From an uncultured Gammaproteobacteria bacterium (GTDB lineage Bacteria > Pseudomonadota > Gammaproteobacteria > UBA9214), in assembly GCA_963748215.1 (NCBI GenBank), contig CAVVHS010000004.1, positions 38,737 through 102,736 on the forward strand: a stretch of DNA of 64,000 nt. The letters run 5' to 3'. Under the pieces are notes generated by a model. That model did not search any database. It was given only the letters and a program-made list of their open reading frames with translations, and had not been told where the DNA came from. Shown here piece by piece: positions 1 through 59,977 of the stretch. The first letter of the stretch is position 1, and each line of letters starts with the position of its first letter. Position numbers and translations under genes: made by a program.

Positions 1-1345
<1,345 letters not shown>

Positions 1346-6459: not shown

Positions 6460-6787
6460 GCCACGGAATCCACGGAAGAACACGGAAATAATTCGTATTC
6501 ATGTACCGACTGGAGACTTCCGGATTGAGTGAATGTCCATCATCCATATCACTCCCGGCTTCGGCGCAGTCCAATATGCGTACTTCAGAGGCATCCAGGA
6601 AGGAGACGAGAGCAGGTCACGCTGTCTGCTTGTCTATATAGATTTATCTTTCCGTGTTCTTCCGTGGATTCCGTGGCCATTATCAAGCACAGGCCCGGGC
6701 CCCTGCACCAACCGACGCCCCGCAGGAGTGGACCTCATCCGCGATTTCCTGTCCCGCATATCCATCGCGCTTGAGAAGCGCTCCTAC
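6460..6787. repeat. Perfect 29-bp inverted pair of repeat C around a 160-bp spacer, followed by a REP-A doublet
   Basis: 6460-6488 is the reverse complement of 6649-6677; REP-A pair at 6722-6787. Confidence 0.88.
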
Positions 6788-42496: not shown

Positions 42497-42695
42497 GTTG
42501 GAGCACTTCGCAAGGCCGCTCCCAGCATGGCCCAGGCCAGTCTCTCGTCCGCTGCGCGGACTCACCTTCTCCTGCTTCACGCGACACTCGTGCATGGCCC
42601 AGGCCAGCTTCTCGACCGGTTCCCGGTCTCACCTTCTCCCTGTACATCGCGCGATCCTTTCCCCAAAAAGATCGCGGACGCGGTCCGCTCCTACA
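42497..42695 (-). mobile_element. Composite: REP-A doublet carrying the 51-bp unit, which carries two 42-bp units (copy 1)
   Basis: Near-identical inverted copy of 51908-52106; nested insert at 42514-42648. Confidence 0.88.
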
Positions 42696-43611: not shown

Positions 43612-43703
43612 GTTTTCTCCCGTTTCCCGTTTGCGGTATATTGCGCAATCAGCAGGGTTGCAGAAATTTGCATGCGCAACAAGACTGGTAAACTGACCCA
43701 GAA

Positions 43704-44741: not shown

Positions 44742-44751
44742 CCCGCACCGG

Positions 44752-45687
<936 letters not shown>

Positions 45688-45754
45688 TTACGCGTGAGCA
45701 CGGCGGGCTCACAAGGGCCAGGCGGGACGACGCCGGCCCTGCGCGTGTCGGCGG

Positions 45755-48382
45755 CTAGAACGGCAGCGACAAGTCGCTCTTGACCTGCAGCATGGCGCGG
45801 CGGAAATCTTCCATAATCCGCGCCAGCGCGGCTTCGGTATCGGCCTCGAAACGCAGCACCAGCACCGGCGTGGTATTCGAGGCGCGCACCAGGCCCCAGC
45901 CGTCCTCGAAATCCACGCGCAGACCATCGATGGTCGATACCGTGGCATTCTCGAAGTGCGCGTTCTCGAGCAGGCGGCCGATGAACTGCTGCGGCTCACC
46001 TTCACGCATGGGAACGTTGAGTTCCGGAGTATTGATGCTGTCCGGCAGTTCCGCGAAAACCTCGGTACTGCTGCGCATGTCCTTGCCGAGGATTTCCAGC
46101 AGCCGCGCGGCGGCATACAGAGCGTCATCGAAACCGAACCAGCGCTCCTTGATGAAGATGTGACCGCTCATCTCTCCGGCCAGCAATGCGCCGCTTTCGC
46201 GAATCTTGGCCTTGATGAAAGAGTGTCCGGTCTTCCACATCAGCGGCTCGCCGCCGTGATCGTGAATGATCTTGTCGAGATGACGGGTGCATTTCACGTC
46301 GTAGATGATCTGTCCACCCGGATTGCGTTCCAGGATATCCATCGCGTACAGCATCAGTACGCGGTCCGGCCAGATGATCGTGCCGTCGGCCGCCACCACG
46401 CCAAGCCGGTCGCCGTCACCGTCGAAGGCCAGGCCGATGTCGGCATGTCCGGTCCGTACCGCGTTGATCAGGTCGGTGAGGTTGGCCGTCTTGCTCGGAT
46501 CGGGATGGTGGTTCGGGAAATTGCCGTCCACGTCGCAGTACAACTCGGTCAGGGTGCAACCCAGCGAACGCAGCAGATCGGGCGCGACGGCGCCGGCCAC
46601 CCCGTTGCCGCAATCGATCACCACGCGCAGTGGGCGCGCCAGGCTGACATCGCCGCGGATACGCTCGATGTAGTCCGGAATGACATTGATGGTTTCGACG
46701 CTGCCGGCACCGGATATGAAATTGCCGGCCTCGATACGCTCGCGCAGGTCCTGGATCGAGTTACCGGACAGGGTTTCCCCGTCGATCACGATCTTCAGGC
46801 CGTTGTAGTCGGGCGGGTTGTGACTGCCGGTCACGACGACGCCGCTCTGCGTATCCAGGTAGTAGGTCGCGAAGTAGAGCACCGGTGTCGGTACGCAGCC
46901 GATATCCTTCACGTTGCAACCGGTCGAGGTGATGCCTTCAACCAGGGCATCGACCAGGATCGGTCCGGACAGGCGCCCGTCACGGGCGACCACGATTTCG
47001 TTGCGTCCACGCTGCAGTGCCTCGCTGCCGATTGCCCGACCGATAAGGTACACAGCCTCCACGGTCAGCGTCTTGTCCACTACACCCCGTATGTCATAGG
47101 CACGGAAAATCGACGGATCGATTCCGGCTGCAACTTTCGTGTCCGGCATGCCTTCCTCCACAATCAGGTTGTCGCTGGATATGGCCGACGTGAAATTCGC
47201 GGCGCCCGCTGACGGGTATTCATCATGTTCCTCAACGCTGATCCCGGCAGCAGGCGTTTCATTCTGCGCGCTGTCGTCACGATCTTCCTTGCGCCGGTTT
47301 TGCCCGCGCTGCTCGCCGGGCTCCCTGGCACTGGCCGCCAGCTGCACCATGAAATCGATGGTGGATTGCAGCTCGGCAAGACCGCCCCCCTTGTCGCGCC
47401 GTACCCGGCCATCGCGAAAGTCTTTCATCAGCGTCACGATGGTGACCTCGTCCTGGCGCAGTGCATTGACCAGACGACGGAACAGCACGTTTACGAGGGC
47501 AGCGAATAATAGCACCGTGGTCAACAGGGCGCCGATCACCCAGAAACTGATACCGGACAGGTAGGCCAGGCTGCCGGTCTCGGGCCACCAGGCGATCTGC
47601 CAGCGGGTATGCTCTATGGGCACGACGCGCTCCGCCTGCCCGGACTTGATGGACGGATCACCACGCGCGGCGACTACCACCGGCGCGCCCTTCTCGCCTG
47701 CCTGGCGCAGTTCGATGTAACCGTGCAGTTCCTTCAGGTCATCGAGGATACCCTGCAGCACATCGTTGGACAGTGACAGCATGATGTGACCGATCACGCC
47801 GGTACCGGCTGGATCCATGACCTTGCGCACGATATTGACGTGCTGTTGCGGCGTGTTGAACAGGTGCACCTCGACGGGCGGCGGCTTGTTGCCGGCCTCG
47901 GCGGCGCCCATCTGGGCCAGTGCAGCGTAACTCAGCGGTGGCGATGCCTGCGGGTCCACCATGGTCATGCCAGGCGACAGCAGGCGCACGTTGATCGCCG
48001 TCGGAAATACATAGCGCAGCGATTCCTCACGGGCGCTGCGCTCGGCCGCGGTACCGATCATCAGGATGTCGGCAATCTCGGGATCCTTGGCCAGCAGCGC
48101 CGCGCTGGCACCGTAATAGTCGGCCATCGCGGCAACCCGGGCGGCAAGCAGGTCGGTGGTGGTGACAGTCTCCTGGTCCTTCGCGGCCACGATGTAGAGT
48201 GCCATCACCTGGAACAGGACATAGGCCAGCGCCGCCAGCAGCAAGATACCGGCGAACATCAGCTGGATGCGGACCCGGGCCAGGCTGGCCGACTGTGCCG
48301 GTCCGGGCGCCCGGGAAGATTTAGCGGCCGGTTTCTTCGCGGCCTTGCGGGGCTTGCGGGAACCGGGTAAAGGAAATTTCAT
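45755..48382 (-). CDS. algC: Phosphomannomutase/phosphoglucomutase with a membrane-anchored N-terminal extension
   Basis: IFRAYDIRG, TGSHNP, FDGDGDR, GEMSGH, VRASNT; about 420-aa N-terminal region with two TM segments. Confidence 0.93.
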   Translation of the reverse strand: MKFPLPGSRKPRKAAKKPAAKSSRAPGPAQSASLARVRIQLMFAGILLLAALAYVLFQVMALYIVAAKDQETVTTTDLLAARVAAMADYYGASAALLAKDPEIADILMIGTAAERSAREESLRYVFPTAINVRLLSPGMTMVDPQASPPLSYAALAQMGAAEAGNKPPPVEVHLFNTPQQHVNIVRKVMDPAGTGVIGHIMLSLSNDVLQGILDDLKELHGYIELRQAGEKGAPVVVAARGDPSIKSGQAERVVPIEHTRWQIAWWPETGSLAYLSGISFWVIGALLTTVLLFAALVNVLFRRLVNALRQDEVTIVTLMKDFRDGRVRRDKGGGLAELQSTIDFMVQLAASAREPGEQRGQNRRKEDRDDSAQNETPAAGISVEEHDEYPSAGAANFTSAISSDNLIVEEGMPDTKVAAGIDPSIFRAYDIRGVVDKTLTVEAVYLIGRAIGSEALQRGRNEIVVARDGRLSGPILVDALVEGITSTGCNVKDIGCVPTPVLYFATYYLDTQSGVVVTGSHNPPDYNGLKIVIDGETLSGNSIQDLRERIEAGNFISGAGSVETINVIPDYIERIRGDVSLARPLRVVIDCGNGVAGAVAPDLLRSLGCTLTELYCDVDGNFPNHHPDPSKTANLTDLINAVRTGHADIGLAFDGDGDRLGVVAADGTIIWPDRVLMLYAMDILERNPGGQIIYDVKCTRHLDKIIHDHGGEPLMWKTGHSFIKAKIRESGALLAGEMSGHIFIKERWFGFDDALYAAARLLEILGKDMRSSTEVFAELPDSINTPELNVPMREGEPQQFIGRLLENAHFENATVSTIDGLRVDFEDGWGLVRASNTTPVLVLRFEADTEAALARIMEDFRRAMLQVKSDLSLPF

Positions 48383-48470
48383 CGCAATCCTTCAGCTAAC
48401 TGTAACAATCTGAGTAATTTGGGATTTTTAATGCAAATACGCTATCGGCAGAGGGGCTGCTTGATTGAAC

Positions 48471-48926
48471 TCAGTGCCTGCCGGTATGACCGAAGCCACC
48501 ATCGCCCCGGTCGCTGGCAACGAATTCCTCGACCACCTCGAAATCGGCATGAACCACCGGCACGATCACGAGCTGCGCAATGCGCTCGCCGGGTACCACC
48601 GTGAACGGTTCGCTGCCGCGGTTCCAGCAGGACACGAAGACCTGGCCCTGATAGTCGGAGTCGATCAGTCCAACCAGATTGCCCAGCACAATGCCATGCT
48701 TGTGGCCCAGGCCGGAGCGCGGCAGCAGGATGGCCGCCAGCCCGGCATCCTCGACATGAATGGCCAGGCCGGTGGGAATCAGGTGGGTCTCACCCGGGGC
48801 GATTTCCAGCGGGGTCTCGACGCAGGCGCGCATGTCCATGCCGGCCGAGCCGGCGGTGGCGTAGTGCGGCAGGGGAAACTCGCTGCCCAGGCGCTTGTCG
48901 AGAATCTTAAGCTGAATCTTTTGCAT
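48471..48926 (-). CDS. dut: dUTPase
   Basis: [31 protein letters not shown]. Confidence 0.97.
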
Positions 48927-50142
48927 TGAACGGGATTACCTTGTTGCCCCTGTCATTGAATCGTTCCGTGATCAGCACCAGCAGTTGCCGCGCCAGCCTG
49001 GCCTTGCCGGTGAGCGGCAGTTCGCATTCGCCGTCTGCCCAGATCACATGCAGGGCGTTGTCCGCGGCGTCGAAACCCCGGCCGGCACCGACCCGGTTCG
49101 CCGCGATCATGTCGACGCCCTTCGCCAGCCGCTTGGCACGCGCATGCTCGACCACCGCTTCGGTCTCGGCGGCAAAACCGACCGTGAAGGGAGCCTGCGG
49201 CGACGCGGCGACCTCGGCCAGGATGTCCGGGTTGCGCACCAGCGTCAGCGCCAGCTGCCCGGCCGTCTTCTTCAACTTGTGCCCGGCCGGCCGCTCCGGC
49301 CGGTAGTCGGCCACGGCCGCGACGGCGATGAAAATATCACAGTTCACCACCTCTTCACGCACGGCGCGTTGCATATCCGTGGCGCTGACGACGTCGATGC
49401 GCCTTACCCGCGGCGGCGTTGCCAGGCTGACCGGGCCGCACACCAGGATCACTTCGGCTCCTGCCTCGACAGCAGCCTGCGCCACGGCAAAGCCCATGCG
49501 GCCCGAGCTGTGATTGCTGATATAGCGCACCGGATCGATCGCCTCACGCGTGGGACCCGCGGTGACCAGCACCCGGGTGCCTGCCAGCGCACCGGTTTCG
49601 AACAGGCCGGCAATGGCGCTCACCAGTTCGCCCGGTTCCAGCAACCGGCCCGGACCGGTTTCGCCGCAGGCCTGCTCGCCCAGCGCTGGTCCGAACACAG
49701 GGATACCGCGCGTGCGCAGCGCTGCAATGTTGTCACGCGTCGCCGCATTCTCCCACATGGCATGGTTCATGGCCGGCGCAATCGCCACCGGTGCCTCGCA
49801 AGCCAGCGCCACGGCAGTCAACAGGTCGTCCGCCCGGCCCTGGGCCAGCCGCGCAATGAAATCCGCAGTGGCCGGCGCGATCAACAGGGCATCCGCCCAG
49901 CGCGCCAGCTCGATATGTCCCATCGCGGCCTCGGCCCCCTCGTCGAGCAGCCCGGTGTGCACCGGGTTGCCGGACAAGGCCTGCAGGGTCAGCGGCGTGA
50001 TGAACTGTTGTGCCGCCGCCGTCATCACCACGCGTACCAGTGCACCCTGCGCACGCAGCTGGCGGATCAGCTCCGCGCTCTTGTAGGCAGCGATGCCGCC
50101 GGTCACGCCCAGCAGCAGGTGTTTGCCGGATAAGGTATTCAT
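48907..50142 (-). CDS. coaBC: Phosphopantothenoylcysteine decarboxylase/ligase
   Basis: [40 protein letters not shown]. Confidence 0.96.
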
Positions 50143-50261
50143 ACCGCTGGAGTTTAACAGAAGATCGGGCGGCGAAAACCTGAAAAGCGTCTCCCGCGAG
50201 CATACCAGGGCGCCGAGCTCACGGAGATAATACATGCATACGCACGCAGGCTGGGCAGGAC

Positions 50262-50483
50262 CCTGCAGGAGCGGATCCCATCCGCGATCATTTTAAACAC
50301 CCCATCGCGCATGAGATGCGCTCCTGCCCTGAGAGTCGTTGTAGGGTGCACTCCGTGCACCGTGAACGGTGCGTAAAACGCACCCTACGGTCCCTAATCA
50401 ATACACGCGTAGGAACTGACGCGGTCCGCGAACAAATCAGGCTCCGGTCGCCATCGATGCGCTTCGTGCCTCACCGCTCCTAC
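50262..50483. repeat. REP-A doublet, REP-B doublet and degenerate REP arms
   Basis: 50262-50438 aligns by eye with 54612-54789, spacers included. Confidence 0.85.
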
Positions 50484-50539
50484 GATCACCCGGGGTTTCT
50501 CCCGATGTACGGCCATCGGTTCATCGGCAAAAATGAGGC

Positions 50540-51217
50540 ATGCATACCATCAGGGACTGGCCGGCGGGCGAGCGGCCACGCGAAAAACTGCTGCGGCACG
50601 GCCCCGGCATGCTGTCGGATGCCGAGCTGCTGGCGATCTTCCTGCGCACCGGCCTGCGCGGCAAGACCGCCGTCGACCTGGCACGCGAGCTGCTGGCCGC
50701 CTTCGGCAGCCTGCGGGTGCTGCTGGACGCCGACCGCACGGCGTTCTGCGCCCATGCCGGGCTGGGCGACGCGAAATTCGCCCAGCTGCAGGCGATACTG
50801 GAGATGGCACGCCGGCACCTGCAGGAGCAGCTCAGTCGCGAGGATACGCTGGAAAACCCGGACACCACGCGCCGCTTCCTCACCGCCCGCCTGCGCCACC
50901 TGCCGCACGAGGTATTCGCCTGCCTGTTCCTCGACAACCGCCACCGTGTGATCGCCTTCGAGGAACTGTTCCGCGGCACCATCGACGGCGCCAGCGTGCA
51001 TCCGCGCGAAGTGGTGCGGCGCGTGCTGCACTTCAACGCCGCGGCCGTGATCCTGGCCCACAACCACCCGTCCGGGGTGCCGGAGCCCAGCCGCGCCGAC
51101 GTGCAGCTGACGCGCCGGCTGGTGGACGCCCTGGCGCTGGTCGATGTGCGCGTGCTGGATCACTTTATTGTGGGGGAAGGCAGCGGCGTGTCCTTTGCCG
51201 AACGCGGGCTGATTTGA
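50540..51217 (+). CDS. radC: RadC/JAB-domain protein
   Basis: [35 protein letters not shown]. Confidence 0.95.
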
Positions 51218-51343
51218 CAGACCACTGAAATCATTGAGAAAATCCTCCAGCGCCGGTGACCTGCCGGGTTGTATCCGGCGATCCTTTCTGGTATAAAATG
51301 CGCCCTTCCCGCTGATGGCGGGCTTTTTCAGAGGTTCAGAGCA

Positions 51344-51580
51344 ATGTCCAGAGTATGCCAGGTCACGGGAAAGCGTCCGCAGAGCGGCAATAACGTCTCC
51401 CACGCCAACAACAGAACCCGTCGCCGCTTCCTGCCCAACCTGCACGAGCACCGCTTCTGGGTGGAAGGAGAAAAGCGCTTCGTCAAGCTGCGCGTCTCGA
51501 ACAAGGGCATGCGCATCATCGACAAGAAGGGCATCGACAGCGTGCTGGCCGAATTGCGCGCCCGCGGCGAGAAGGTTTAG
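51344..51580 (+). CDS. rpmB: 50S ribosomal protein L28
   Basis: [21 protein letters not shown]. Confidence 0.98.
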
Positions 51581-51592
51581 GGAGAACACACC

Positions 51593-51748
51593 ATGCGTGA
51601 CAAGATCAGACTCGTCTCCAGCGCCGGCACCGGCCACTTCTACACCACCACGAAGAACAAACGCAACATGCCGGAGAAGATGGAAATCAAGAAATTCGAC
51701 CCCGTGGTACGCAAGCACGTGATGTACAAGGAAGCCAAGATCAAGTAA
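51593..51748 (+). CDS. rpmG: 50S ribosomal protein L33
   Basis: [24 protein letters not shown]...[19 protein letters not shown] (51 aa, below the ORF-track cutoff). Confidence 0.98.
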
Positions 51749-51772
51749 TCCCGGTCCAACGTCATTGCACCG

Positions 51773-51800
51773 AAAAAAACCCGGCCCTGCCGGGTTTTTT
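51773..51800. terminator. Rho-independent terminator
   Basis: AAAAAAACCCGGC-CCT-GCCGGGTTTTTT after rpmG. Confidence 0.9.
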
Positions 51801-51907
51801 AATGCCCGTGCAGCGCAAGAAATGATGTCGCGCCATGGCGCCGGGAAACATCACGAATTTGCCATAGAGGGTACGGAGAATATTTATTCTGGTGCGGAAT
51901 TCCAAGT

Positions 51908-52106
51908 TGTAGGAGCGAACCGCGTCCGCGATCTTTTTGGGGAAAGGATCGCGCGATGTACAGGGAGAAGGTGAGACCGGGAACCGGTCGAGAAGCTGGC
52001 CTGGGCCATGTACAAGTGTCGCGTGAAGCAGGAGAAGGTGAGTCCGCGCAGCGGACGAGAGACTGGCCTGGGCCATGCTGGGAGCGGCCTTGCAAAACGC
52101 TCCTAC
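51908..52106 (+). mobile_element. Composite: REP-A doublet carrying the 51-bp unit, which carries two 42-bp units (copy 2)
   Basis: GTAGGAGCG..CGCGAT / ATCGCGC[51955-52089]TTGCAAAACGCTCCTAC; 42-bp units at 51967-52008 and 52034-52075. Confidence 0.88.
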
Positions 52107-52158
52107 TAAGCAGTATCGATTGCCCGACAAACCAAGGATTGAAAATCTCCGCGGCCTC

Positions 52159-52205
52159 TCGGCAACTGCTCCTGCGTTGCTCTACCTCCTACATCCATGT
52201 AGTCG
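52159..52205 (-). mobile_element. 47-bp double-hairpin unit inserted in another repeat
   Basis: Minus strand CGACTACATGGATGTAGGAGGTAGAGCAACGCAGGAGCAGTTGCCGA interrupts CCTCGCGCA^GAGG, which is uninterrupted at 25922. Confidence 0.7.
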
Positions 52206-52252
52206 TGCGCGAGGCTGTTGTGGAAACTCATGGCGCCTTCGCGAGACAGTCT

Positions 52253-54235
52253 TTACTCCCGCTCCAGCAGCAGATTCCCCACCGCATCGACCGTGCAGGA
52301 CCAGTCCGCCGACAGCCAGGTGGTGGCCACCGTCTCGGTGACCAGCGCGGGGCCATCGAAGCGACACCCCGCGCCCAACGCCTCACGCGCATACACCGGT
52401 ACCGGCCGGGTATGCCCGGCCACGCGGGTGTGACGCGGCGCGGCAGCGCGTCCGGCCGCAAGCCTTGGCAGCCGGACATCGACCGCGGGACCCTGCAACC
52501 CGCAGCGTACGGTGACCAGTTCGACCGGCGTATCCAGGCGATGACCGTAACGCTGTGCATGCAATGCCTCGAATGCCGCCCGCATTGCCGCCAGGCCCTG
52601 CCAGGCAAGATTCAGGGTGTAGGACTGGCCCTGATAGCGCAGATCGAGGCTGAACGTAGCCTCGATGGCGTCGGCACCAACCCCCTCGGCGACGAGTTCC
52701 GCACGGCCATGCGTGGCCAGCGCCTGCAGCTCGTCGACGATCGCCGTCTCGCTGAAACCATCGAGCACACCGGTCAGGGTGCGCGACAGCTGCCGCGACG
52801 GCGGCGCGACCAGCATGCCCAGCGCCGACAGGACCCCGGCATGCACCGGCACCAGCGCACGCACCATGCCGAGCGCCTCCGCCAGCGCGCACACGTGCAG
52901 GCCGCCGGCCCCGCCGAACGAGGTCAGGACCAGATTGCGCGGATCGACACCGCGCTGCACCGAGATCACGCGCAGTGCCTGCGCCATGTGCTCGTTGGCG
53001 ATCGCGATCACGCCCGCGGCCGCTGCCTCGACTCCGACCTGCATTGCTGCCGCGAGCCGCGCCAGCACCTGCTGTGCCGCACCGGCATCCAGTGACATCG
53101 CACCGCCGAGAAAGGCATCCGGCAACAGCCGGCCCAGCACCAGGTTGGCATCGGTCACTGTTGCCTGCGTCCCGCCCAGCCCGTAGCACGCCGGGCCCGG
53201 ATCGGCACCGGCCGACTCCGGCCCGACGGCGAGCAGGCCACCGCTGTCGAGGCTGGCGATCGAGCCACCGCCCGCGCCGATGGTGTGCATGTCGACCATG
53301 GGCACGGCGACCGGCCACGGCCCGATCCGGCCCTCCGAGGTCAGTCGGATATCACCGTCGACCAGCGCGACATCGGTCGACGTGCCGCCCATATCAAAGG
53401 TGAGCAGGCGTGCATGCCCGGCCTGCCGGCCGATACACCGTGCCCCCATCAGGCCGCCGGCCGGGCCGGACAACAGCAGGTGTACCGCCTTGCGGCCGGC
53501 CAGCGCGGCATTGATCGTGCCGCCGCTGCTCTGCATGACCGCCACCGGCGCCGGGGCGAGTGCGGCATTGAGCCGCTCGAGGTAACCGGCCACGCGCGGT
53601 CCGACCCAGGCATTCAGCCAGGTGGCAATACCGCGCTCATATTCCTTGTATTCGGGCAGTACCTCGGAGGAGCGTGCGATGAACAGCCCCCTTGGCAGCC
53701 ACGACTCGATCGTGCGTTCGTCGCTGTCGTCGAGAAAGGAAAACAGCAGGTTGATCGCCACCGCCTCCGGCCTGAACTGCCCGATCAGCGCCAGCAGCCC
53801 GGCACGGTCGGCATCCGTCAGGCTGGAAACGCGCGCGCCGTCCGCACCCAGGCGCGCACCGACCTCCCAGCACAGCTCGCGCGGCACCGGCGGCGGCTCG
53901 GGTCCGGGCTGCAGGTTATACAGCTCGCGGCGCGCCTGGCGACCGATGGTGAGCACGTCAGCCAGCCCGCGGTTGGAGATATAGGCCGTGCGCACGCCCT
54001 TGCGCTCCAGCGCGGCGTTGGTGGCCACGGTGGACCCGTGCACGACATGCAGCCCGGCAGTGGACAGGCCCAGTTCCCCGATACCCTGGAGGATGGCGCG
54101 TTCCGGCGCGGCCGGCGTCGACAGCACCTTGTGGATACGCAGCCGTTCACCGTCGAACAGTACGAAGTCGGTGAAAGTGCCGCCGGTATCGATGCCCAGC
54201 CAGCGCCTCGGGTGGGGTGTGCCGGATTCAGTCAT
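52253..54235 (-). CDS. Hydantoinase A/5-oxoprolinase family protein
   Basis: GIDTGGTFTD, HGSTVATNA, SGPAGG, DMGGTSTD, IGAGGGS, SAGADPGPACY. Confidence 0.93.
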   Translation of the reverse strand: MTESGTPHPRRWLGIDTGGTFTDFVLFDGERLRIHKVLSTPAAPERAILQGIGELGLSTAGLHVVHGSTVATNAALERKGVRTAYISNRGLADVLTIGRQARRELYNLQPGPEPPPVPRELCWEVGARLGADGARVSSLTDADRAGLLALIGQFRPEAVAINLLFSFLDDSDERTIESWLPRGLFIARSSEVLPEYKEYERGIATWLNAWVGPRVAGYLERLNAALAPAPVAVMQSSGGTINAALAGRKAVHLLLSGPAGGLMGARCIGRQAGHARLLTFDMGGTSTDVALVDGDIRLTSEGRIGPWPVAVPMVDMHTIGAGGGSIASLDSGGLLAVGPESAGADPGPACYGLGGTQATVTDANLVLGRLLPDAFLGGAMSLDAGAAQQVLARLAAAMQVGVEAAAAGVIAIANEHMAQALRVISVQRGVDPRNLVLTSFGGAGGLHVCALAEALGMVRALVPVHAGVLSALGMLVAPPSRQLSRTLTGVLDGFSETAIVDELQALATHGRAELVAEGVGADAIEATFSLDLRYQGQSYTLNLAWQGLAAMRAAFEALHAQRYGHRLDTPVELVTVRCGLQGPAVDVRLPRLAAGRAAAPRHTRVAGHTRPVPVYAREALGAGCRFDGPALVTETVATTWLSADWSCTVDAVGNLLLERE

Positions 54236-54299
54236 AGGGTGCGTATTGTAGCGTGACACGACGGATGCGGCCCGCGTATGAAGATCTACAACCATTCTT

Positions 54300-54830
54300 C
54301 GCATGCCTGCGCTCCTACCCCGATATACGTTGTAGGGTGCACTCCGTGCACCGTGGCCGGTGCGTAAAACGCACCCTACGGTCCATCATGCATTAATTTT
54401 TCCGCGTTCTTCCGTGGATTCCGTGGCCATATCATCGCGCATGAGATGCGCTCCTACCCCAATAGACGGTGTAGGGTGCACTCCGTGCACCGTCGCCGGT
54501 GCGTAAAACGCACCCTACGCCCCATCATGCATCAATTTTTTCCGTGTTCTTCCGTGGATTCCGTGGCCATATCATCGCGCATGAGATGCGCTCCTACACC
54601 CAAACGATGCTCCTGTAGGAGCGGATCCCATCCGCGATCATTTTTAACACCCAATCGCGCATGAGATGCGCTCCTACCCCGATATACGTTGTAGGGTGCA
54701 CTCCGTGCACCGTGGCCGGTGCGTAAAACGCACCCTAACGGTCCCTGATCAATGAACGCGCAGGAGAGGACGCGGTCCGCGAACGAATCTGCCGCCGATC
54801 TTCGCACATGAGATACGCTCTTACCCCCAA
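54300..54830. repeat. Periodic BIME-like array (REP-A arm, REP-B doublet, repeat C; period about 140 bp)
   Basis: REP-B doublets at about 54332, 54471 and 54691; C followed by REP-A at about 54397 and 54536. Confidence 0.9.
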
Positions 54831-54881
54831 TAGCATCTTTCCCTGCTTGTATTCGGCACGGCAAAGGTAATAATAGGCGCC

Positions 54882-55835
54882 ATGTCGAATACCCCCCTGG
54901 TACACGCCGCAAACCTGTACCGCTATTACAGCCAGACCTGTGCGGTCGACAACGTCAGCTTCGACCTCGCACGCGGCGACGTGCTCGGCTTCCTCGGCCC
55001 GAACGGTGCCGGCAAGTCGACCACCATGCAGATGCTGACCGGCAACCTGGCACCCAGCGCCGGAGAGATTGACATCCTCGGCATCGACCTGCTGGATGCA
55101 CCCAAGCGCGCCAAGTGCGAGATCGGCTACCTGCCGGAACAGCCGCCGGTTTACCGCGAACTGACCGTCGATGAATACCTCGGCTATTGCGCGAAACTCA
55201 ACCGCATCGAGCGCAACCGCCGGCAGGCGGCCATCGACACCGCCAAGGAACGCTGCGGGCTGACCGCGGTCGGCCGGCGCCTGATCGGCAACCTGTCCAA
55301 GGGCTACCAGCAACGCGTCGGCATCGCGCAGGCGATCATCCACACGCCGGCGGTGGTGATCCTCGACGAACCCACGGTCGGCCTCGACCCGCTGCAGATC
55401 CGCGAAATCCGCGCCCTGATACGCGAACTCGGCAAGGAGCATGGCATCGTCCTGTCCACGCACATACTCCCCGAGGTGCAGGCCACCTGCAATCGCGTGC
55501 AGATCATCAACCGCGGCCGGCTGGTGTTCTCCGAGACCATCGCCAACCTGGACGAGCGCCTGCACGCGACCTCGCTGCTGGCACGCTTCAACACGACCCC
55601 GGACATCGCCGCCCTGCAGCGGCTGCCCGGCGTAACCGGCGTCGACTATCTGGACGATGACCACGTGCGCCTCCACCACGGCGGCGACGACCCGTCCGAG
55701 GCGCTGGTCGAACAATCCGTTGCCGCCGGCTGGCGACTGGTGGAACTGGCGCCCGAGCGCAGCACGCTGGAACAGATCTTCATTGACCTGACCACGGCCG
55801 ACGTCGCCACGGACCGCAGCGGGGAGGCCGCCTGA
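54882..55835 (+). CDS. ABC transporter ATP-binding protein (GldA-like)
   Basis: GPNGAGKST, IGYLPE, LSKGYQQRVG, ILDEPTVGLDP. Confidence 0.92.
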   Translation: MSNTPLVHAANLYRYYSQTCAVDNVSFDLARGDVLGFLGPNGAGKSTTMQMLTGNLAPSAGEIDILGIDLLDAPKRAKCEIGYLPEQPPVYRELTVDEYLGYCAKLNRIERNRRQAAIDTAKERCGLTAVGRRLIGNLSKGYQQRVGIAQAIIHTPAVVILDEPTVGLDPLQIREIRALIRELGKEHGIVLSTHILPEVQATCNRVQIINRGRLVFSETIANLDERLHATSLLARFNTTPDIAALQRLPGVTGVDYLDDDHVRLHHGGDDPSEALVEQSVAAGWRLVELAPERSTLEQIFIDLTTADVATDRSGEAA

Positions 55836-56587
55836 TGATCCTGACCATCGCCGCACGCGAACTGCGCAGCCTGTTCCTGTCGCCGCTGGCGTGGGCAATC
55901 CTCGCGGTGACGCAGGGCATTCTCGCCTTCCAGTTCCTGTCCTACATCGAGCAGTACGTGACCATCCAGCCGCAGCTGGCCGCGCTGGAGGGCGCGCCGG
56001 GCATCGCCGACATGATCATCGCCCCGCTCTACGCGGACGCCGCCATCGTGCTGCTGCTGATCACACCGCTCGTCACCATGCGCGTGCTCAGCGAGGAACG
56101 CCGCAATCGCACGCTCAGCCTGCTGTTCTCGGCACCGGTATCGATGAGCGAGATCGTGTTCGGCAAGTACCTCGGCGTGCTCGGCTTCTTCCTGGTGATG
56201 GTCGCCATGCTGACGCTGATGCCACTGTCGCTGCTGGCCGGCACCGACCTGGACCTCGGCAAGCTGGCGTCCTGCATCTTCGCGCTGGTGCTGGTGCTGT
56301 CGGCGTTCGCCGCCATCGGCGTGTACATGTCATCGCTTACCCAGCAGCCCACGGTCGCCGCCGTCACCACCTTCGGCCTGCTGTTGCTGCTGTGGATCAT
56401 CGACAAGGGGGCCACGGCGGCCGATGACGGCAGCGGGGTACTGGCGTACCTGTCCATGCTGACGCACTACGACCCGCTGCTGAAGGGCCTGTTCAACAGC
56501 ATGGACGTCAGCTACTACCTGCTGGTCATCGTCCTGTTCATCGGCTTCACCATCCGCCGCCTCGACAGCATGCGGCTGCAGAATTAG
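55835..56587 (+). CDS. ABC-2 permease (GldF-like)
   Basis: RELRSLFLSPLAW, TMRVLSEERR, IVFGKYL. Confidence 0.9.
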   Translation: MILTIAARELRSLFLSPLAWAILAVTQGILAFQFLSYIEQYVTIQPQLAALEGAPGIADMIIAPLYADAAIVLLLITPLVTMRVLSEERRNRTLSLLFSAPVSMSEIVFGKYLGVLGFFLVMVAMLTLMPLSLLAGTDLDLGKLASCIFALVLVLSAFAAIGVYMSSLTQQPTVAAVTTFGLLLLLWIIDKGATAADDGSGVLAYLSMLTHYDPLLKGLFNSMDVSYYLLVIVLFIGFTIRRLDSMRLQN

Positions 56588-57039
56588 CCCGCATTTCTCA
56601 CCGGGCGGCGGTGGCAGGACGGCATAAAGAGTTAAATCATGAAAGCGATACAAACTTGGCAACAAACAGCGTGTATTTTGGCAGCGCCTATCCCGGCCCT
56701 GGCTGGTCCTCGCGCGCCTGTACTTGCGATGTACAGGGATGTACAAGTGCCGCGTGAGGCAGGAAGCCGTGAGCGGCCTCTTCAGTCTAGTGGTAGCTAC
56801 GGCCGCATCGCTCCGAGGGGCGGAAGAGGGGCCCCGCCACGCAGCGATGGGGATCTGACCCCCGGTGGAGCGAAGATCCGCGGCGGTACTCGAAGCGATG
56901 TTCCGCTCACCGGCGGTCGCATCCCCGGCTGCGCCGGGGCCCCTGCTCTGCGCCTCGAGCGGATCTTTCCTTCCAGAGCGGCGTCCAGTCACACGAGTCC
57001 TGCGCCAGCATCCGGGATCCCGGTGAGAAATGCGGGCTA
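56585..57039. mobile_element. MITE family E, 455-bp copy containing the 51-bp insert (56728-56778)
   Basis: Perfect 21-bp TIR TAGCCCGCATTTCTCACCGGG; begins on the TAG stop of the permease. Confidence 0.9.
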
Positions 57040-57042
57040 CCG

Positions 57043-58398
57043 ATGAAAATCTCGCAGCACATCCGTAACCGGTTGCGCCTGCAGGGCGTGCTGTTCACCC
57101 TGCTGTTCGTCGGCGTGGTCGGCATGCTCGCCTGGGTGAGCACGCAGTACGTCTACCAGGCGGACTGGACCGCGGGCGCACGCAACACTATCTCCGGGGA
57201 TACGCACAAGCTGCTCGCCAATCTCGACGCGCCGGTCAATATCACCGCCTACGTCGGCCCGGACCCGCTGCTGCGTCAGCAGATACGCGACCTGGTCGGC
57301 AGCTACCAGCGCTTCAAGTCCGACATCACGCTGGAGTTCATCAACCCGGACACTGTGCCGGAACAGGTGCGCGAACTCGGCATCACCCGCGGCGGCGCCA
57401 TCGTCGTCAGCTACCGCGGCGCCAGCGAAAACATCAAGACGCTGGGCGAGCAGCACCTCAGCAATGCGCTGCTGCGCCTGTCGCGCCAGCAGGAACGCTG
57501 GATCGTCTTCGTCAGCGGCCACGGCGAGCGCCCGCCGGGTGGCGACACCAATTTTGGCATGGGACAGTTCGGTGCGGAACTGGAACGCAAGGGTCTCAGG
57601 ATACAGACCGTCAACCTCGCCGAGAACACGGTCCCGGCCAATACCAGCGTGCTGGTGCTGGCCAGCCCGCGCGTGGAACTGCTGCCCGGCGAGGTTGCCG
57701 CCCTGCAGGACTACCTCTCGCGCGGCGGCAACCTGCTGTGGTTGACCGAACCCGATGGACCCCGCAGCCTGACACCGCTGGCCGACGACCTCGGCATTCT
57801 CGCGCTGCCCGGCCGCGTGGTGGATGCGACCAGCGCGATGTTCGGCGTGGAAAACCCGAGCTTCGTCGTGGTGACCGGCTACCCGAATCACCCGGTCACG
57901 CGCGAAATGTCCATGGTCAGCGTCTACCCGGAGGCGGTCGCGCTGGAGATAAACGACACCACGCAGTGGCACGCGGTCCCGTTGCTGACCACGCTGGCAC
58001 GCTCGTGGACGGAACTCGGTGCACTCGAAGGCGAGATCCAGTTCGACCCGGGCACGGACGAACGCGCCGGACCGCTCGACATCGGGGTCGCGCTGGTGCG
58101 CAGCAAACCGGGCGGCAATGACGGCGACGAACAACGCACCGTAGTTGTCGGTGACGGCGATTTCCTGTCCAACACCTACCTGGGCAATGCCGGCAACCTG
58201 GACCTCGGACTCAACCTCATCACCTGGCTGAGTCACGACGACGCCTTCATGGACATCCGCGTACGCGGCGCACCCGACACCGCACTGGTGATGGGGCCCG
58301 CCACCATGGCTGTCATCGGCCTCGGCTTCCTGGTCGGCCTGCCGCTGCTGTTGCTGGTGGCGGGGCTGGTCATCTGGCTGCGCCGCCGGCGGCGCTAG
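57043..58398 (+). CDS. GldG-like ABC transporter auxiliary component
   Basis: [33 protein letters not shown]-terminal TM followed by WLRRRRR. Confidence 0.85.
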   Translation: MKISQHIRNRLRLQGVLFTLLFVGVVGMLAWVSTQYVYQADWTAGARNTISGDTHKLLANLDAPVNITAYVGPDPLLRQQIRDLVGSYQRFKSDITLEFINPDTVPEQVRELGITRGGAIVVSYRGASENIKTLGEQHLSNALLRLSRQQERWIVFVSGHGERPPGGDTNFGMGQFGAELERKGLRIQTVNLAENTVPANTSVLVLASPRVELLPGEVAALQDYLSRGGNLLWLTEPDGPRSLTPLADDLGILALPGRVVDATSAMFGVENPSFVVVTGYPNHPVTREMSMVSVYPEAVALEINDTTQWHAVPLLTTLARSWTELGALEGEIQFDPGTDERAGPLDIGVALVRSKPGGNDGDEQRTVVVGDGDFLSNTYLGNAGNLDLGLNLITWLSHDDAFMDIRVRGAPDTALVMGPATMAVIGLGFLVGLPLLLLVAGLVIWLRRRRR

Positions 58399-58521
58399 CC
58401 CGCCTGTCTCAGGGGGCGGCGGTGGCACGACATAATGAGCTGACATCATGAGAGCGATACAGCTACGGCGACAAACAGTGTGTGTTACGGCAGCGCCTGT
58501 CCCGGCGGGAAATGCGGGTTA
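58396..58521. mobile_element. MITE family E, short 126-bp copy
   Basis: Degenerate TIRs TAGCCCGC.. / ..AAATGCGGGTTA; interior aligns with 56585-56696; begins on a TAG stop. Confidence 0.78.
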
Positions 58522-58528
58522 GCCGACG

Positions 58529-59416
58529 ATGTCGACCCGTACCCTCCTCAACCTGGCACTGGCCGTCATCGCCCTCGGGCTGGCCGCACTGATCTGGCTG
58601 CGCCCTGGCCTGGAACGCGACAGCGGGTCACAGGCCATTACCGGCATCGATCCACAACAGGTCAGCATGATCGAACTGACGCGCAGCGCTGCCGTGCCAC
58701 TCACCTTCAGCCGGCACGACGGGCACTGGCTGATCGACGGCGCCACTGCCATCCCGGCCGATGATTTCCAGGTGCATACCGTGCTGGCACTGCTGGAAGC
58801 GCCCGGCATTCGCAGCTATCCGGCCAACCCGCTCGACCTCGCGGCCCTGGGTCTGGACCCGCCACAGGCCGGCGTGCGCTTCGACGCCACGCAAATCGAC
58901 CTCGGCAATACCGAGGCTATCGAGGGCCTGCGCTACGTCAGGCTCGGCGCAATGGTTTACCTGGTCGAGGACAACTACGCGCACCTGCTCAACGCCGGCC
59001 TCGCCAATTTTGCCAGCCGCCGCCTGTTGCCACAGGAAGCAACGATTGTCGGGCTCGAACTGCCCGGCCTGAAGTTGACGCGCAGCGATGACGTGCACTG
59101 GCAAATGGACCCCGCGCAGCCCGACACCTCCGCCGATGCCATCGAGCAGCTGGTGCAGAACTGGCAGCGGGCGAGCGCACTGTACGTACGCCGCTACGAA
59201 CCCGGCGAGCACCCCGACACCATCCGCGTGACACTCAAGGACGCCGACGCACCCGTCGAGTTTCGCATCGTCGCACGCGAACCCGACCTGGTACTGGCGC
59301 GGACTGACCGGGGTCTCCAGTATCACCTCACCGGTGATGTCGGGGCGGGATTGCTGGCCCTGCCGGAGTCACCGACTGAATCTGAGCAGTCACCTGCAGT
59401 GTCTGTGCATGAATAG
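58529..59416 (+). CDS. DUF4340-like protein of the Gld-type ABC operon
   Basis: N-terminal TM, LAALGLDPP, RYVR; operon position. Confidence 0.72.
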   Translation: MSTRTLLNLALAVIALGLAALIWLRPGLERDSGSQAITGIDPQQVSMIELTRSAAVPLTFSRHDGHWLIDGATAIPADDFQVHTVLALLEAPGIRSYPANPLDLAALGLDPPQAGVRFDATQIDLGNTEAIEGLRYVRLGAMVYLVEDNYAHLLNAGLANFASRRLLPQEATIVGLELPGLKLTRSDDVHWQMDPAQPDTSADAIEQLVQNWQRASALYVRRYEPGEHPDTIRVTLKDADAPVEFRIVAREPDLVLARTDRGLQYHLTGDVGAGLLALPESPTESEQSPAVSVHE

Positions 59417-59424
59417 TCAGTGCG

Positions 59425-59910: not shown

Positions 59911-59977
59911 TTCAAACAAACGCACTCAGGCAAATCTGCCTATAATCTGCGACATCAATGCATAACGACCACGCACC

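What the first reader, a model, noticed from the sequence alone, without database searches (positions are those of the whole stretch)
51908..52106. Three-level nesting of tiny hairpin elements: 42 bp inside 51 bp inside a REP arm
Seen: removing two 42-bp units (51967-52008, 52034-52075; GAAGGTGAG...CTGGCCTGGGCCA) from 51955-52089 leaves exactly 51 bp, GATGTACAGGGA^TGTACAAGTGTCGCGTGAAGCAGGA^TGCTGGGAGCGGCC. This matches the uninterrupted 51-mer at 56728-56778. Both 42-mers sit at GGA^TG, in the loops of the 51-mer's two hairpins. Removing the 51-mer leaves ATCGCGC^TTGCAAAACGCTCCTAC, a 24-bp REP arm like the intact ATCGCGCTTGAGAAGCGCTCCTAC at 6764-6787. There is no target duplication beyond a 1-bp ambiguity, and no TIRs. 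Inference: a hierarchy of very small, site- or structure-specific non-autonomous elements, each targeting the next. Insertion without duplication into REP-like hairpins fits HUH/Y1 (RAYT, IS200/605 TnpA) or IS110-type recombinases acting in trans. I know of no description of this nested system.
Basis: partly seen in the sequence, partly recalled or inferred. Interest (0 to 1): 0.85.

Follow-up and report, generated by a model that had tools for sequence, protein, structure and literature searches.

The report
Nested tiny hairpin mobile elements
A palindromic repeat pair here carries a 51-base hairpin element that itself carries two 42-base hairpin elements, all belonging to a widespread and apparently undescribed set of tiny DNA elements that sit precisely inside the hairpin loops of other repeats.

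Summary
Window 51909-52106 is a REPIN-like inverted pair of GTAG-headed REPs. Its right arm is split by a 51-nt double-hairpin unit (B), and each of B's two loops is split by a 42-nt double-hairpin unit (A).

A is an independent unit:
- The genome holds 72 copies, in 42-nt and 53-55-nt forms.
- 61 of 72 follow GGA and 65 of 72 precede TG.
- They lie in at least six host repeat families, preferentially in hairpin loops closed by CA/TG.
- Every host family also has empty sites.
- A occurs in 30 of 37 genomes of the genus (0-42 copies each) and in over 100 loci of other uncultured Gammaproteobacteria, but in only 4 of 401 genomes drawn evenly across the class.

There are no terminal inverted repeats and no target duplication. 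The inner hairpin and the host stems covary. Whole composites also move or duplicate as units: the same composite sits at 42510-42695, and the closest relative has it at neither site.

The mobiliser is unknown. Copy number does not track Y1 (RAYT/IS200), Y2 (IS91), IS110 or reverse-transcriptase genes. Much of the copy number comes from co-amplification and A-by-A recombination, and at least one "empty" site is a secondary deletion. I found no description in print.

The parts
51909..51933 (+). Left REP arm of the REPIN-like pair (GTAG-headed palindrome)
   Evidence: Read. It pairs with 52090-52106 in the ssDNA fold. 149 GTAGGAGC heads occur in the genome once A is removed in silico. A RAYT-like gene at contig C2:111905-112123 is flanked by this REP type.
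51947..51954 (+). Right REP arm, part before the B insertion
   Evidence: Intact arms of the two REP subtypes number 94 and 115 in the genome. At least 11 arms carry a B-sized insert at the same place: 9 found plus the two window copies.
51955..52089 (+). B, a 51-nt double-hairpin unit, here in three pieces (51955-51966, 52009-52033, 52076-52089) split by two A units
   Evidence: 46 of 51 identical to the uninterrupted copy at 56728-56778. 28 BLAST hits in the genome after A is removed in silico. An intact copy folds as two hairpins, z -4.2.
51967..52008 (+). A copy 1 (42 nt): 5' tail, 6-bp hairpin, linker, 4-bp hairpin. It sits in the loop of B hairpin 1, between GGA and TG
   Evidence: In 112 distinct copies the inner hairpin is 98.2% paired, with changes on both sides in 5 of 6 pairs.
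52034..52075 (+). A copy 2 (42 nt), whose inner hairpin carries compensatory changes. It sits in the loop of B hairpin 2, between GGA and TG
52090..52106 (+). Right REP arm, part after the B insertion
   Evidence: Joined to 51947-51954 it matches the arm at 6764-6787 at 21 of 24.
42510..42695 (-). Second copy of the whole composite (REPIN + B + two A units), 98.4% identical over 186 nt
   Evidence: identity starts and stops at the REP heads. The orthologous site in the closest relative, G428, has no composite.
56728..56778 (+). Uninterrupted B copy inside a larger repeat (EF). Its second loop reads GGA-AG, not GGA-TG, and is empty
   Evidence: The 14 B copies with the GGAAG variant carry no A, against 10 filled and 12 empty GGATG copies.
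56688..57011 (+). EF, a larger repeat of about 320 nt (including B) that hosts B, and hosts A at another site; extent approximate
   Evidence: There are 8 B-empty and 7 B-filled copies. No Rfam family matches.
52157..52211 (-). C, a 55-nt double-hairpin unit with an empty A target in its first loop
   Evidence: The genome has 22 empty and 18 A-filled copies of this site.
6764..6787 (+). Intact REP arm used as the empty-site comparison for B
51774..51800 (.). Bidirectional terminator-like hairpin downstream of rpmG; the composite lies beyond it
   Evidence: 12-nt perfect inverted repeat flanked by A and T runs. Conserved in congeners.
51581..51748 (+). rpmG (ribosomal protein L33). It converges on the hydantoinase-like gene at 52253-54304 (-), so the composite sits between two gene ends
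   Evidence: Pfam Ribosomal_L33, 69.9 bits. Hydantoinase_A, 299.9 bits.

Best explanation
Window 51909-52106 is a REPIN-like pair of REPs whose right arm was invaded by a 51-nt double-hairpin element (B). Each of B's two hairpin loops was then invaded by a 42-nt double-hairpin element (A).

A, B and at least three further families (C, D, EF) form a guild of very small, non-coding, non-autonomous DNA elements that live inside one another.

Shown:
- A has fixed ends.
- A lies between GGA and TG, mostly in the loop of a stem closed by CA/TG.
- A leaves no duplication and has no inverted ends.
- A occurs in many unrelated stems and species.
- A varies from 0 to 42 copies among congeners.
- Composites are also copied as whole units.

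Inferred:
- The elements move as folded single strands by a cut-and-rejoin reaction. One cut falls 3' of GGA at the target, at the loop/3'-arm junction. The other falls 3' of the element's own terminal CCA. This is the logic of HUH 'peel and paste' transposition.
- Nesting is favoured because a loop insertion leaves the host element's stem, and so its own propagation, intact.

Not identified: the enzyme. None of the usual suspects tracks the element.

Most present-day copies probably arose passively. They were copied with their hosts, reshuffled by recombination between adjacent A copies, or lost by deletion.

The confidence given is for the reading as a whole: site- and structure-specific mobile nested elements plus passive co-amplification. 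The HUH-like chemistry alone I put at about 0.3.
For: Unit and boundaries:
- 72 copies in the genome: 43 of 42 nt, 27 of 53-55 nt with a different inner hairpin, and 2 of a 44-nt paralogue.
- 61 of 72 follow GGA and 65 of 72 precede TG.
- Over 178 copies from many genomes the upstream logo is C .76, A .69, N, G .96, G .96, A .95.

Hairpin-loop preference:
- A stem of 4 bp or more flanks 36 of 70 own copies and 74 of 110 copies from other genomes.
- The figure is about 26% when flanks are shuffled, and 907 of 10,401 for all GGATG sites in the genome.
- Stems differ in sequence but stay paired.

Structure:
- The inner hairpin is 98.2% paired, with changes on both sides in 5 of 6 pairs. 0 of 500 shuffles reach the covariation score.
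- The 44-nt paralogue has a compensatory change in hairpin 2.

Filled and empty sites:

| Site | Empty | Filled |
|---|---|---|
| C | 22 | 18 |
| D | 8 | 6 |
| E | 16 | 5 |
| B hairpin 1 | 26 | about 20 |
| B hairpin 2 | 12 | 10 |
| B in EF | 8 | 7 |

- 0 of 14 copies of the GGAAG variant of B hairpin 2 are filled.

Dynamics:
- 30 of 37 congeners carry A, with 0-42 copies.
- Against the closest relative (flanks 92-97% identical), neither composite site is occupied in the relative.
- One orthologous E site is empty here and filled there.
- The two composites in the window are 98.4% alike, with identity ending at the REP heads.

Location: 2 of 70 copies fall inside crude gene calls. Spaces between convergent genes are enriched (22 of 67 against a baseline of 408 of 1699).

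Not a known RNA family: Rfam finds nothing on these units.
Against: - No mobilising gene was found.
  - No Y1 gene is flanked by A-E.
  - No copy has A ends around an ORF.
  - Across 37 congeners, copy number is uncorrelated with Y1_Tnp (r 0.03), Y2_Tnp (-0.02), IS110 (0.01), RVT_1 (0.09) and the genome's own GTAG-REP RAYT (0.07).
  - G428, with 36 copies and 96% complete, has no Y1 or Y2 hit.
- There is no replication-strand bias (39 against 31), unlike IS200/IS605.
- The inner-hairpin variant tracks the host family, also across species. Jumps between host families are therefore rare, and most copies are passengers.
- Several copies are recombinants between adjacent A units.
- At the one site with outgroups, the 'empty' state is probably an 89-nt deletion between 4-nt direct repeats. 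The filled state there is old.
- No insertion event with a known direction has been shown for A alone.
- Metagenome contigs gave no filled/empty variants or circle junctions.
Confidence: 0.55

Rival explanations
1. No dedicated enzyme is involved. A spreads among paralogous host hairpins by homologous recombination or gene conversion (a homing-like repair after hairpin breakage). It reaches new host families only by rare template switching at the shared CA-NGGA/TG loop. Empty sites arise partly by deletion across the stem.
For: - The inner-hairpin variant tracks the host family within and across species.
- Recombinants between adjacent A copies exist.
- An 89-nt loss lies between 4-nt repeats.
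- Copy number shows no correlation with any recombinase class tested.
- All host loops share the same 6-8 nt around the insertion point.
Against: - A lies in at least 28 flank clusters, many with unrelated stems that share only CA-NGGA/TG.
- The microhomology on the 3' side is 2-3 nt.
- Empty loops always read exactly NGGA, which deletion by slippage would not guarantee.
- Copy-number bursts in single lineages (0 to 42 copies) look like transposition.
Confidence: 0.2
2. The units are modules of a functional structured element (DNA or RNA), for example 3'-end stabilisers, terminator helpers or protein-binding hairpins. A is an optional stem extension kept by selection, and the nesting reflects modular evolution rather than mobility.
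For: - The single-stranded parts of A are almost invariant across many species, while the stems covary.
- An orthologous copy kept across the genus carries a compensatory double change.
- The units lie at gene ends, enriched between convergent genes.
Against: - There is no Rfam family.
- In tandem gene contexts 24 copies are opposite to the genes and 12 are co-oriented, so no orientation is fixed.
- G.T against A.C mismatches are 12 against 9 in the inner hairpin, so no RNA-like strand asymmetry appears.
- Intergenic contents turn over completely between relatives at 76-97% identity.
- Seven of 37 congeners lack A, one of them 100% complete.
- A paralogue sits inside and breaks an IS91-like gene remnant.
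Confidence: 0.1
3. The units are mobilised in trans by a known enzyme class: a RAYT or IS200/605-type Y1 HUH transposase, or an IS110-type recombinase.
For: - The anatomy fits: no TSD, no TIR, the left end next to a fixed short target, and hairpins near both ends.
- This genome has five Y1_Tnp hits and two IS110 hits.
- Five of five other A-bearing genomes tested have a Y1 hit, though one is below the curated cut-off.
Against: - There is no adjacency and no correlation.
- G428 (36 copies) and G438 (16 copies) have no Y1 hit.
- G018, G438, G433 and G006 (10-17 copies) have no IS110 hit.
- All 7 A-free congeners have Y1 hits.
- There is no strand bias.
- A lacks the GTAG or CGTC head of REPs.
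- MAG incompleteness weakens each of these negatives.
Confidence: 0.15
4. RNA-level origin: the units are inserted by reverse splicing or by retro-copying of a small structured RNA.
For: A is a compact structured unit, and its first bases superficially resemble a 5' splice-site motif. This is recalled, not tested.
Against: - RVT_1 does not co-vary with copy number (r 0.09). Three of the seven genomes with 10 or more copies have no RT hit.
- No ribozyme or intron family matches.
- There is no strand asymmetry of wobble pairs.
Confidence: 0.03

Closest known systems
REP / REPIN elements with their RAYT (TnpA-REP) transposases
   Same: - Both are short palindromic, non-coding, high-copy intergenic elements.
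- Both are thought to move as folded single strands, persist in a lineage, and sit at gene ends.
- The outer arms of this composite are true members: they have a GTAG head and form an inverted pair, and a RAYT-like gene is flanked by them.
- Corneloup et al. 2021 (PMC8266576, abstract read) describe TnpA-REP acting on single-stranded REP hairpins preceded by a conserved motif.
   Different: - A and B have no GTAG or CGTC head.
- They are not found around any Y1 gene.
- They do not co-vary with Y1 genes.
- They insert inside other elements at a fixed loop position.
IS200/IS605-family transposons and their ORF-less derivatives (PATEs)
   Same: - No terminal inverted repeats and no target duplication.
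- The left end always abuts a short fixed target sequence.
- Hairpins lie near both ends.
- A 'peel and paste' single-strand mechanism would reproduce the junctions seen.
- The family's properties are recalled here from general knowledge.
   Different: - A is only 42 nt.
- Its right hairpin ends exactly at the element's end.
- The 3' flank is also fixed (TG), and the target is usually a hairpin loop.
- There is no cognate TnpA or ORF-bearing copy.
- There is no replication-strand bias.
- No TnpB-type gene is present.
Small dispersed repeats (SDR) of heterocyst-forming cyanobacteria (Elhai et al. 2008, Genome Res 18:1484)
   Same: - Both are very small mobile repeats without a known enzyme.
- SDRs are reported, as I recall, to lie nested in one another and in MITEs.
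- I saw only citations of this paper. [quoted passage not shown]
   Different: - The phylum and the sequences differ.
- The paper itself is not held, so size, target and structure could not be compared.
- The fixed GGA^TG loop target, the double-hairpin build and the four-level nesting seen here are not known to me from SDRs.
Mosaic or internally expanded repeats: BIMEs, ERIC with internal inserts, pneumococcal BOX; REP dimers inside longer palindromes
   Same: - Repeats built of modules, or carrying inserts at fixed internal sites.
- Di Nocera et al. 2013 (PMC3733652, passages read) note REP dimers lying inside longer palindromes in three species.
- The ERIC, BIME and BOX details are recalled.
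   Different: - Those cases are one level deep, or are linear mosaics.
- Here a defined 42-nt unit recurs in many unrelated hairpins across species, with single-base precision.
MITEs derived from DDE transposons
   Same: Small, non-autonomous, high-copy and intergenic.
   Different: MITEs have terminal inverted repeats and target duplications. Both were tested here and are absent.

Membership tests
REP/REPIN-RAYT (outer arms 51909-51933 and 51947-51954 + 52090-52106) | Palindromic unit of about 25 nt with a GTAG head, present in high copy | tested here: met
   149 GTAGGAGC heads; 94 and 115 intact arms of the two subtypes.
REP/REPIN-RAYT (outer arms) | Two REPs in inverted orientation forming a larger hairpin (REPIN) | tested here: met
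   The heads pair in the ssDNA fold, -42.7 kcal/mol, z -3.58.
REP/REPIN-RAYT (outer arms) | A Y1 (RAYT) gene flanked by the same REPs | tested here: met
   Y1_Tnp hit at contig C2:111905-112123, 38.3 bits, flanked on both sides by GTAGGAGCG-type REPs.
REP/REPIN-RAYT (units A and B as members) | GTAG or CGTC head next to the palindrome | tested here: not met
   Neither A nor B carries this head at either end.
REP/REPIN-RAYT (units A and B as members) | Cognate RAYT flanked by the unit, and co-occurrence with it | tested here: not met
   - None of 14 Y1 loci examined carries A-E next to the gene.
- Spearman r is 0.03 over 37 genomes.
- G428 has 36 copies and 0 Y1 hits.
- Caveat: these are incomplete MAGs.
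IS200/IS605-derived ORF-less element (PATE) | No TIR, no TSD, left end next to a fixed short target | tested here: met
   GGA precedes 61 of 72 copies; the ambiguity is 1 nt.
IS200/IS605-derived ORF-less element (PATE) | Subterminal hairpins at both ends | tested here: inconclusive
   There are two hairpins. However, the right one ends at the last base, and the whole unit is far shorter than known ends (recalled).
IS200/IS605-derived ORF-less element (PATE) | Autonomous relative with the same ends, carrying tnpA (and often tnpB) | tested here: not met
   - There are no orphan ends around an ORF.
- There is no TnpB-type hit.
- The Y1 frames are 167-271 aa and are flanked by other repeats.
IS200/IS605-derived ORF-less element (PATE) | Orientation bias relative to replication | tested here: not met
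   39 against 31 by local GC skew, p 0.40. The orientation of the host elements may mask a bias.
MITE of a DDE transposon | Terminal inverted repeats and target-site duplication | tested here: not met
IS110/IS1111-type element or derivative | DEDD transposase present and co-varying; element ends that form a recombination junction | tested here: not met
   - IS110 hits occur in 3 of 7 genomes with 10 or more copies and in 3 of 7 with none; r 0.01.
- Junction recognition is not testable here.
Known structured RNA family (Rfam 15) | Match to a covariance model at or near its gathering score | tested here: not met
   - No match on the composite at E up to 10.
- None at gathering score in the window or in 14 loci of other genomes.
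Cyanobacterial small dispersed repeats (SDR) | Sequence, size and insertion features as defined by Elhai et al. 2008 | not testable with these tools
   The paper is not held. Only citing passages were seen.

The most novel reading that the evidence does not exclude
A-E are a new class of 'loop-invading' minimal mobile elements.
- Each is a double-hairpin unit of 42-55 nt.
- Each inserts with single-base precision into the hairpin loops of other selfish repeats, giving a parasite-on-parasite hierarchy three to four levels deep.
- They are moved by an enzyme outside the Y1 HUH, Y2 HUH, IS110 and reverse-transcriptase families, or by host replication and repair alone.
- They are shared, almost unchanged, by a scattered set of uncultured Gammaproteobacteria.
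Probability: 0.3. Interest if true: 0.9.

Novelty: new variant of a known kind. Interest (0 to 1): 0.75.

Why it matters
These are among the smallest units that behave like mobile DNA, and they show a clear rule: they sit in the loop of another element's hairpin, so the host element's stem survives. That makes two questions testable. How do very small repeats such as REPs and cyanobacterial SDRs actually move? And can mobile elements form stable multi-level parasitic hierarchies inside a bacterial genome?

The target is fixed (GGA^TG at the loop/3'-arm junction), the ends are invariant, and the substrates are tiny. This gives a direct biochemical handle, because 60-100-nt oligonucleotides would do as substrates. 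The failure of the usual recombinase classes to track the element points either to an unrecognised enzyme or to a repair-driven route.

On the practical side, these units break short-read assemblies and drive fast turnover of intergenic DNA in this clade.

Tried and rejected
- Rfam found nothing on the units.
- Plasmid and phage collections gave no match to B with its two A copies, using blastn at E 1e-3.
- Sequencing runs: 20 rows hold part of the stretch. I laid the Logan contigs of four metagenome runs on window 41000-60999. The contigs break at the repeats, and the joints are repeat-to-repeat artefacts. There was no 42-nt or 51-nt skip and no circle junction, so the result is uninformative either way.
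- Orthologous comparison with congeners at 76-88% identity failed because the intergenic DNA is completely replaced. It worked only with G428.
- The A-only difference at the EF locus has no outgroup: G002 lacks the whole EF there, and the G429 contig ends in it.
- Replication-strand bias was tested and not seen.
- Transcription-orientation bias was weak (24 against 12). It rests on crude gene calls made by GC3, which are my own and not validated.
- Wobble-pair strand asymmetry was not seen.
- Autonomous copy: orphan left and right ends were listed. All are truncated or chance matches, and none encloses an ORF.
- Co-occurrence with Y1, Y2, IS110, RT and the genome's own RAYT was not found. The MAGs are 61-100% complete, so absences are 'not found'.
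- My first regular expressions for REP arms were wrong. One search gave 0 intact arms, and one pattern gave 0. The counts I use come from the corrected patterns. The two window composites escaped that pattern and were added by hand.
- Literature: searches found no description of this system, nor of six literal stretches of it.
  - Elhai et al. 2008 is not held.
  - Supplements were not consulted, and may list repeats I could not see.
  - The search covers open-access papers and bioRxiv only.
- In the genome-contig scan the 3' TG was part of the pattern. TG frequency in other species is therefore imposed, and only the own-genome figure (65 of 72) counts.
- NCBI labels of some MAG hits (a 'Halobacteria archaeon', a 'Rhodothermales') were not checked and may be binning or labelling errors.
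Full report
**What is there**

The stretch was read directly.
- 51909-51933 is a GTAG-headed REP.
- A 13-nt spacer follows, and after it comes the inverted partner arm.
- That arm is broken after its eighth base (51954) and resumes at 52090-52106.
- The 135 nt in between are three pieces of a 51-nt unit (B: 51955-51966, 52009-52033, 52076-52089) separated by two 42-nt units (A: 51967-52008 and 52034-52075).

Checks on each level:
- The repeat finder sees the two A copies with their shared flanks as a 47-nt direct repeat, 85% alike.
- With both A copies removed, the remaining 51 nt match the uninterrupted copy at 56728-56778 at 46 of 51 positions.
- With B also removed, the arm matches the intact arm at 6764-6787 at 21 of 24 (counted by eye).
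- Each A lies between GGA and TG in the loop of one of B's two hairpins.
- The boundary ambiguity is one base, and there are no inverted ends.
- As single-stranded DNA, A folds into two small hairpins (6 bp with a 3-nt loop; 4 bp with a 4-nt loop). B and the neighbouring unit C (52157-52211, minus strand) also fold into two hairpins each.
- The whole composite folds at -42.7 kcal/mol, z -3.58.

The composite lies beyond the terminator of rpmG (L33), between that gene and the end of a convergent hydantoinase-like gene. The 410-aa frame on the minus strand there is spurious.

**A is an independent unit**
- BLAST finds 42 hits of 30 nt or more in the 3.52-Mb, 9-contig genome.
- A profile search then revealed a second form of 53-55 nt, with the same ends but a different inner hairpin.
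- A tolerant pattern finds 72 units: 43 of 42 nt, 27 of 53-55 nt, and 2 of a 44-nt paralogue. Of these, 61 follow GGA and 65 precede TG.
- In this genome their flanks fall into six recurrent host site types plus others:

| Host site | Copies |
|---|---|
| B hairpin 1 | 20 |
| C hairpin 1 | 18 |
| B hairpin 2 | 10 |
| D hairpin 2 | 6 |
| E | 5 |
| A B variant | 3 |
| Other | 8 |

- Over 178 copies from this and other genomes there are 155 distinct 24-nt flank strings in 28 single-linkage clusters. The upstream logo reads C, A, N, G, G, A, with 0.95-0.96 at the last three positions.
- A stem of 4 bp or more closes around 36 of 70 own copies and 74 of 110 copies from other genomes. The figure is about 26% when the right flanks are shuffled among copies, and 907 of 10,401 for all GGATG sites in the genome.
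- In other species the stems differ in sequence yet pair perfectly.
- On 112 distinct copies the inner hairpin is 98.2% paired, with changes on both sides in 5 of 6 pairs. None of 500 shuffles reaches the covariation score.
- The second hairpin was fixed by the search pattern in that set. In the 44-nt paralogue, however, it carries a compensatory change.

**Filled and empty sites**

Every host family has both states.

| Site | Empty | Filled |
|---|---|---|
| C hairpin 1 | 22 | 18 |
| D hairpin 2 | 8 | 6 |
| E | 16 | 5 |
| B hairpin 1 | 26 | about 20 |
| B hairpin 2 | 12 | 10 |

- There is a natural control. The 14 B copies whose second loop reads GGA-AG instead of GGA-TG carry no A. These 14 belong to one co-amplified subfamily, so they are not independent.
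- B itself is found in at least 11 REP arms, always after the same four bases, against 209 intact arms.
- B occurs in 7 of 15 copies of a larger repeat (EF; window copy about 56688-57011).
- B also occurs directly after terminator T-runs in other species, and elsewhere.
- Unit D lies inside C.
- The 44-nt paralogue of A lies inside remnants of an IS91-like transposase gene. Removing it restores the frame. In three other species a 42-nt A sits inside that paralogue. Nesting therefore reaches four levels.

**Distribution**
Nearly all are in MAGs labelled Gammaproteobacteria, Ectothiorhodospiraceae or Lysobacterales. The same host families recur there.
- In an even draw across the class, only 4 of 401 genomes have the pattern: this one, two congeners and one other.
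- In the genus, 30 of 37 genomes have it.

| Genome | A copies |
|---|---|
| This genome | 42 |
| G428 | 36 |
| G429 | 17 |
| G018 | 17 |
| G438 | 16 |
| G433 | 12 |
| G006 | 10 |
| The other 30 congeners | 8 or fewer (seven of them 0) |

  One of the seven genomes without A is 100% complete.
- The pattern read backwards gave no match anywhere.
- There is no match in 72,556 plasmids or 50,697 phage records.

**Dynamics**
- The whole composite occurs a second time at 42510-42695 on the other strand. It is 98.4% identical over 186 nt, and the identity ends exactly at the REP heads.
- The closest relative held (G428, flanks 92-97% identical) has no composite at either site. At the rpmG site it has a C unit instead. 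The composite was therefore gained here, or lost there, as one unit, passengers included.
- Of the 30 A-centred loci fetched from G428, several share A at the orthologous place with this genome.
- At one orthologous EF element the E site is empty here and filled in G428. No outgroup carries that EF.
- At another locus G428, G008 and G002 carry B with A. The copies are decayed in the two distant relatives, and G008 shows a compensatory double change in the inner hairpin. This genome and G429 lack exactly 89 nt there, between a 4-nt direct repeat. Here the empty state is most simply a secondary deletion, and the filled state is old.
- Several A copies have the left flank of one host hairpin and the right flank of the next. 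That is what recombination between two adjacent A copies would leave.
- The inner-hairpin variant tracks the host family, also across species. Most copies were therefore propagated together with their hosts.

**The mobiliser**
- This genome has five Y1_Tnp hits (frames of 167-271 aa), two IS110 hits (one in the window at 62140-62559), three IS91-like remnants and no TnpB-type hit.
- Only the GTAG REPs surround a Y1 gene. The other Y1 genes have their own flanking repeats. None of 14 Y1 loci from six genomes has A-E next to the gene.
- No pair of A ends encloses an ORF.
- Across the 37 congeners, A copy number is uncorrelated with every candidate tested.

| Candidate | Spearman r |
|---|---|
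| Y1_Tnp | 0.03 |
| The genome's own GTAG-REP RAYT | 0.07 |
| Y2_Tnp | -0.02 |
| IS110 | 0.01 |
| RVT_1 | 0.09 |

- G428, with 36 copies at 96% completeness, has no Y1 and no Y2 hit. An A-free, 100% complete congener has all four classes.
- There is no replication-strand bias (39 against 31) and no wobble-pair asymmetry.
- These are MAGs, so each absence means 'not found'.

**Reading**

The anatomy has four features:
- fixed ends;
- no duplication and no inverted repeats;
- a left end that always abuts a short fixed target;
- small hairpins near both ends, with a target exposed in a loop.

This is what a single-strand cut-and-rejoin (HUH-like) reaction would give, and I keep that as the most likely chemistry. 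The enzyme is unidentified, and a repair- or recombination-driven route is a serious rival.

What the data do show is a guild of minimal double-hairpin elements that live inside each other's loops, are copied with their hosts, recombine and decay, and are shared by a scattered set of uncultured Gammaproteobacteria.

**Comparison with what is known**
- The outer arms pass the REP/REPIN-RAYT tests. A and B fail them.
- A meets the junction criteria of IS200/IS605-type elements, but fails on the cognate gene, the autonomous copy and the strand bias.
- MITE criteria are not met, and no Rfam family matches.
- The nearest precedent I know is the small dispersed repeats of Nostocaceae (Elhai et al. 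2008). I could only see these through citing papers, so the likeness rests on recall.
- Six literal stretches of the units occur in no paper of the searched library. Searches for nested REP/REPIN or hairpin-loop insertions found nothing comparable.
- I therefore rate it a new variant of a known kind: very small, non-autonomous hairpin repeats. The mobilisation mechanism remains open.

Noticed in passing
genome contig C6:837143-837186 and C6:844860-844903 (outside the window; locus L122:3144-3187 and 10861-10904): A 44-nt paralogue of A lies inside remnants of an IS91-like (Y2_Tnp) transposase gene, at the same codon position as in three other species (L016, L112, L114). Removing it restores the reading frame. 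In those three species a 42-nt A is nested in it. The flanks here are not GGA/TG on the A strand.
   Followed up: partly
genome-wide, e.g. contig C1:18876-18930; none in the window: A second form of A, 53-55 nt long (27 copies), has the same ends but a longer inner hairpin of different sequence. One copy (C7, near 57031) has that inner part tandemly expanded.
   Followed up: partly
window 54300-54760: A dense array of REPs alternates with a second palindromic repeat of about 48 nt. In four metagenome runs this bin has by far the highest summed contig depth (1463 against about 22 in run X1).
   Followed up: no
window 56688-57011 and about 23695-23961: Two copies of a larger repeat (EF, roughly 270-320 nt) with about ten copies in the genome. 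It has separate sites for B and for A, and no Rfam match. Its interior differs strongly between orthologous copies in this genome and G428.
   Followed up: partly
window 62140-62559 (-): An IS110-type transposase domain (59.6 bits) in a 344-aa open frame. Its insertion site and ends were not examined.
   Followed up: no
genome contig C9:316317-316643 and C9:333650-333976: Two identical Y1_Tnp genes (245 aa), each flanked by its own short inverted repeat. This looks like a two-copy REPtron or an IS200-like unit.
   Followed up: no
window 50486-51718 (-): This 410-aa open frame has no Pfam match and overlaps rpmG on the other strand. It is a spurious frame of the GC-rich sequence.
   Followed up: yes
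window 1256-1347 (-): TPP riboswitch, 72.5 bits. It is the only Rfam family at gathering score in the window.
   Followed up: no
locus L204 (G008), orthologous to L188:1461-1549: An old orthologous copy of A in a distant congener carries a compensatory double change in the inner hairpin, although the rest of the unit is decaying. This is either selection on the hairpin in place or conversion by another copy.
   Followed up: no
loci L019, L029, L053, L065, L129: In several other genomes B starts directly after the T-run of a terminator-like hairpin. This hints that B may also prefer the 3' foot of hairpins.
   Followed up: no
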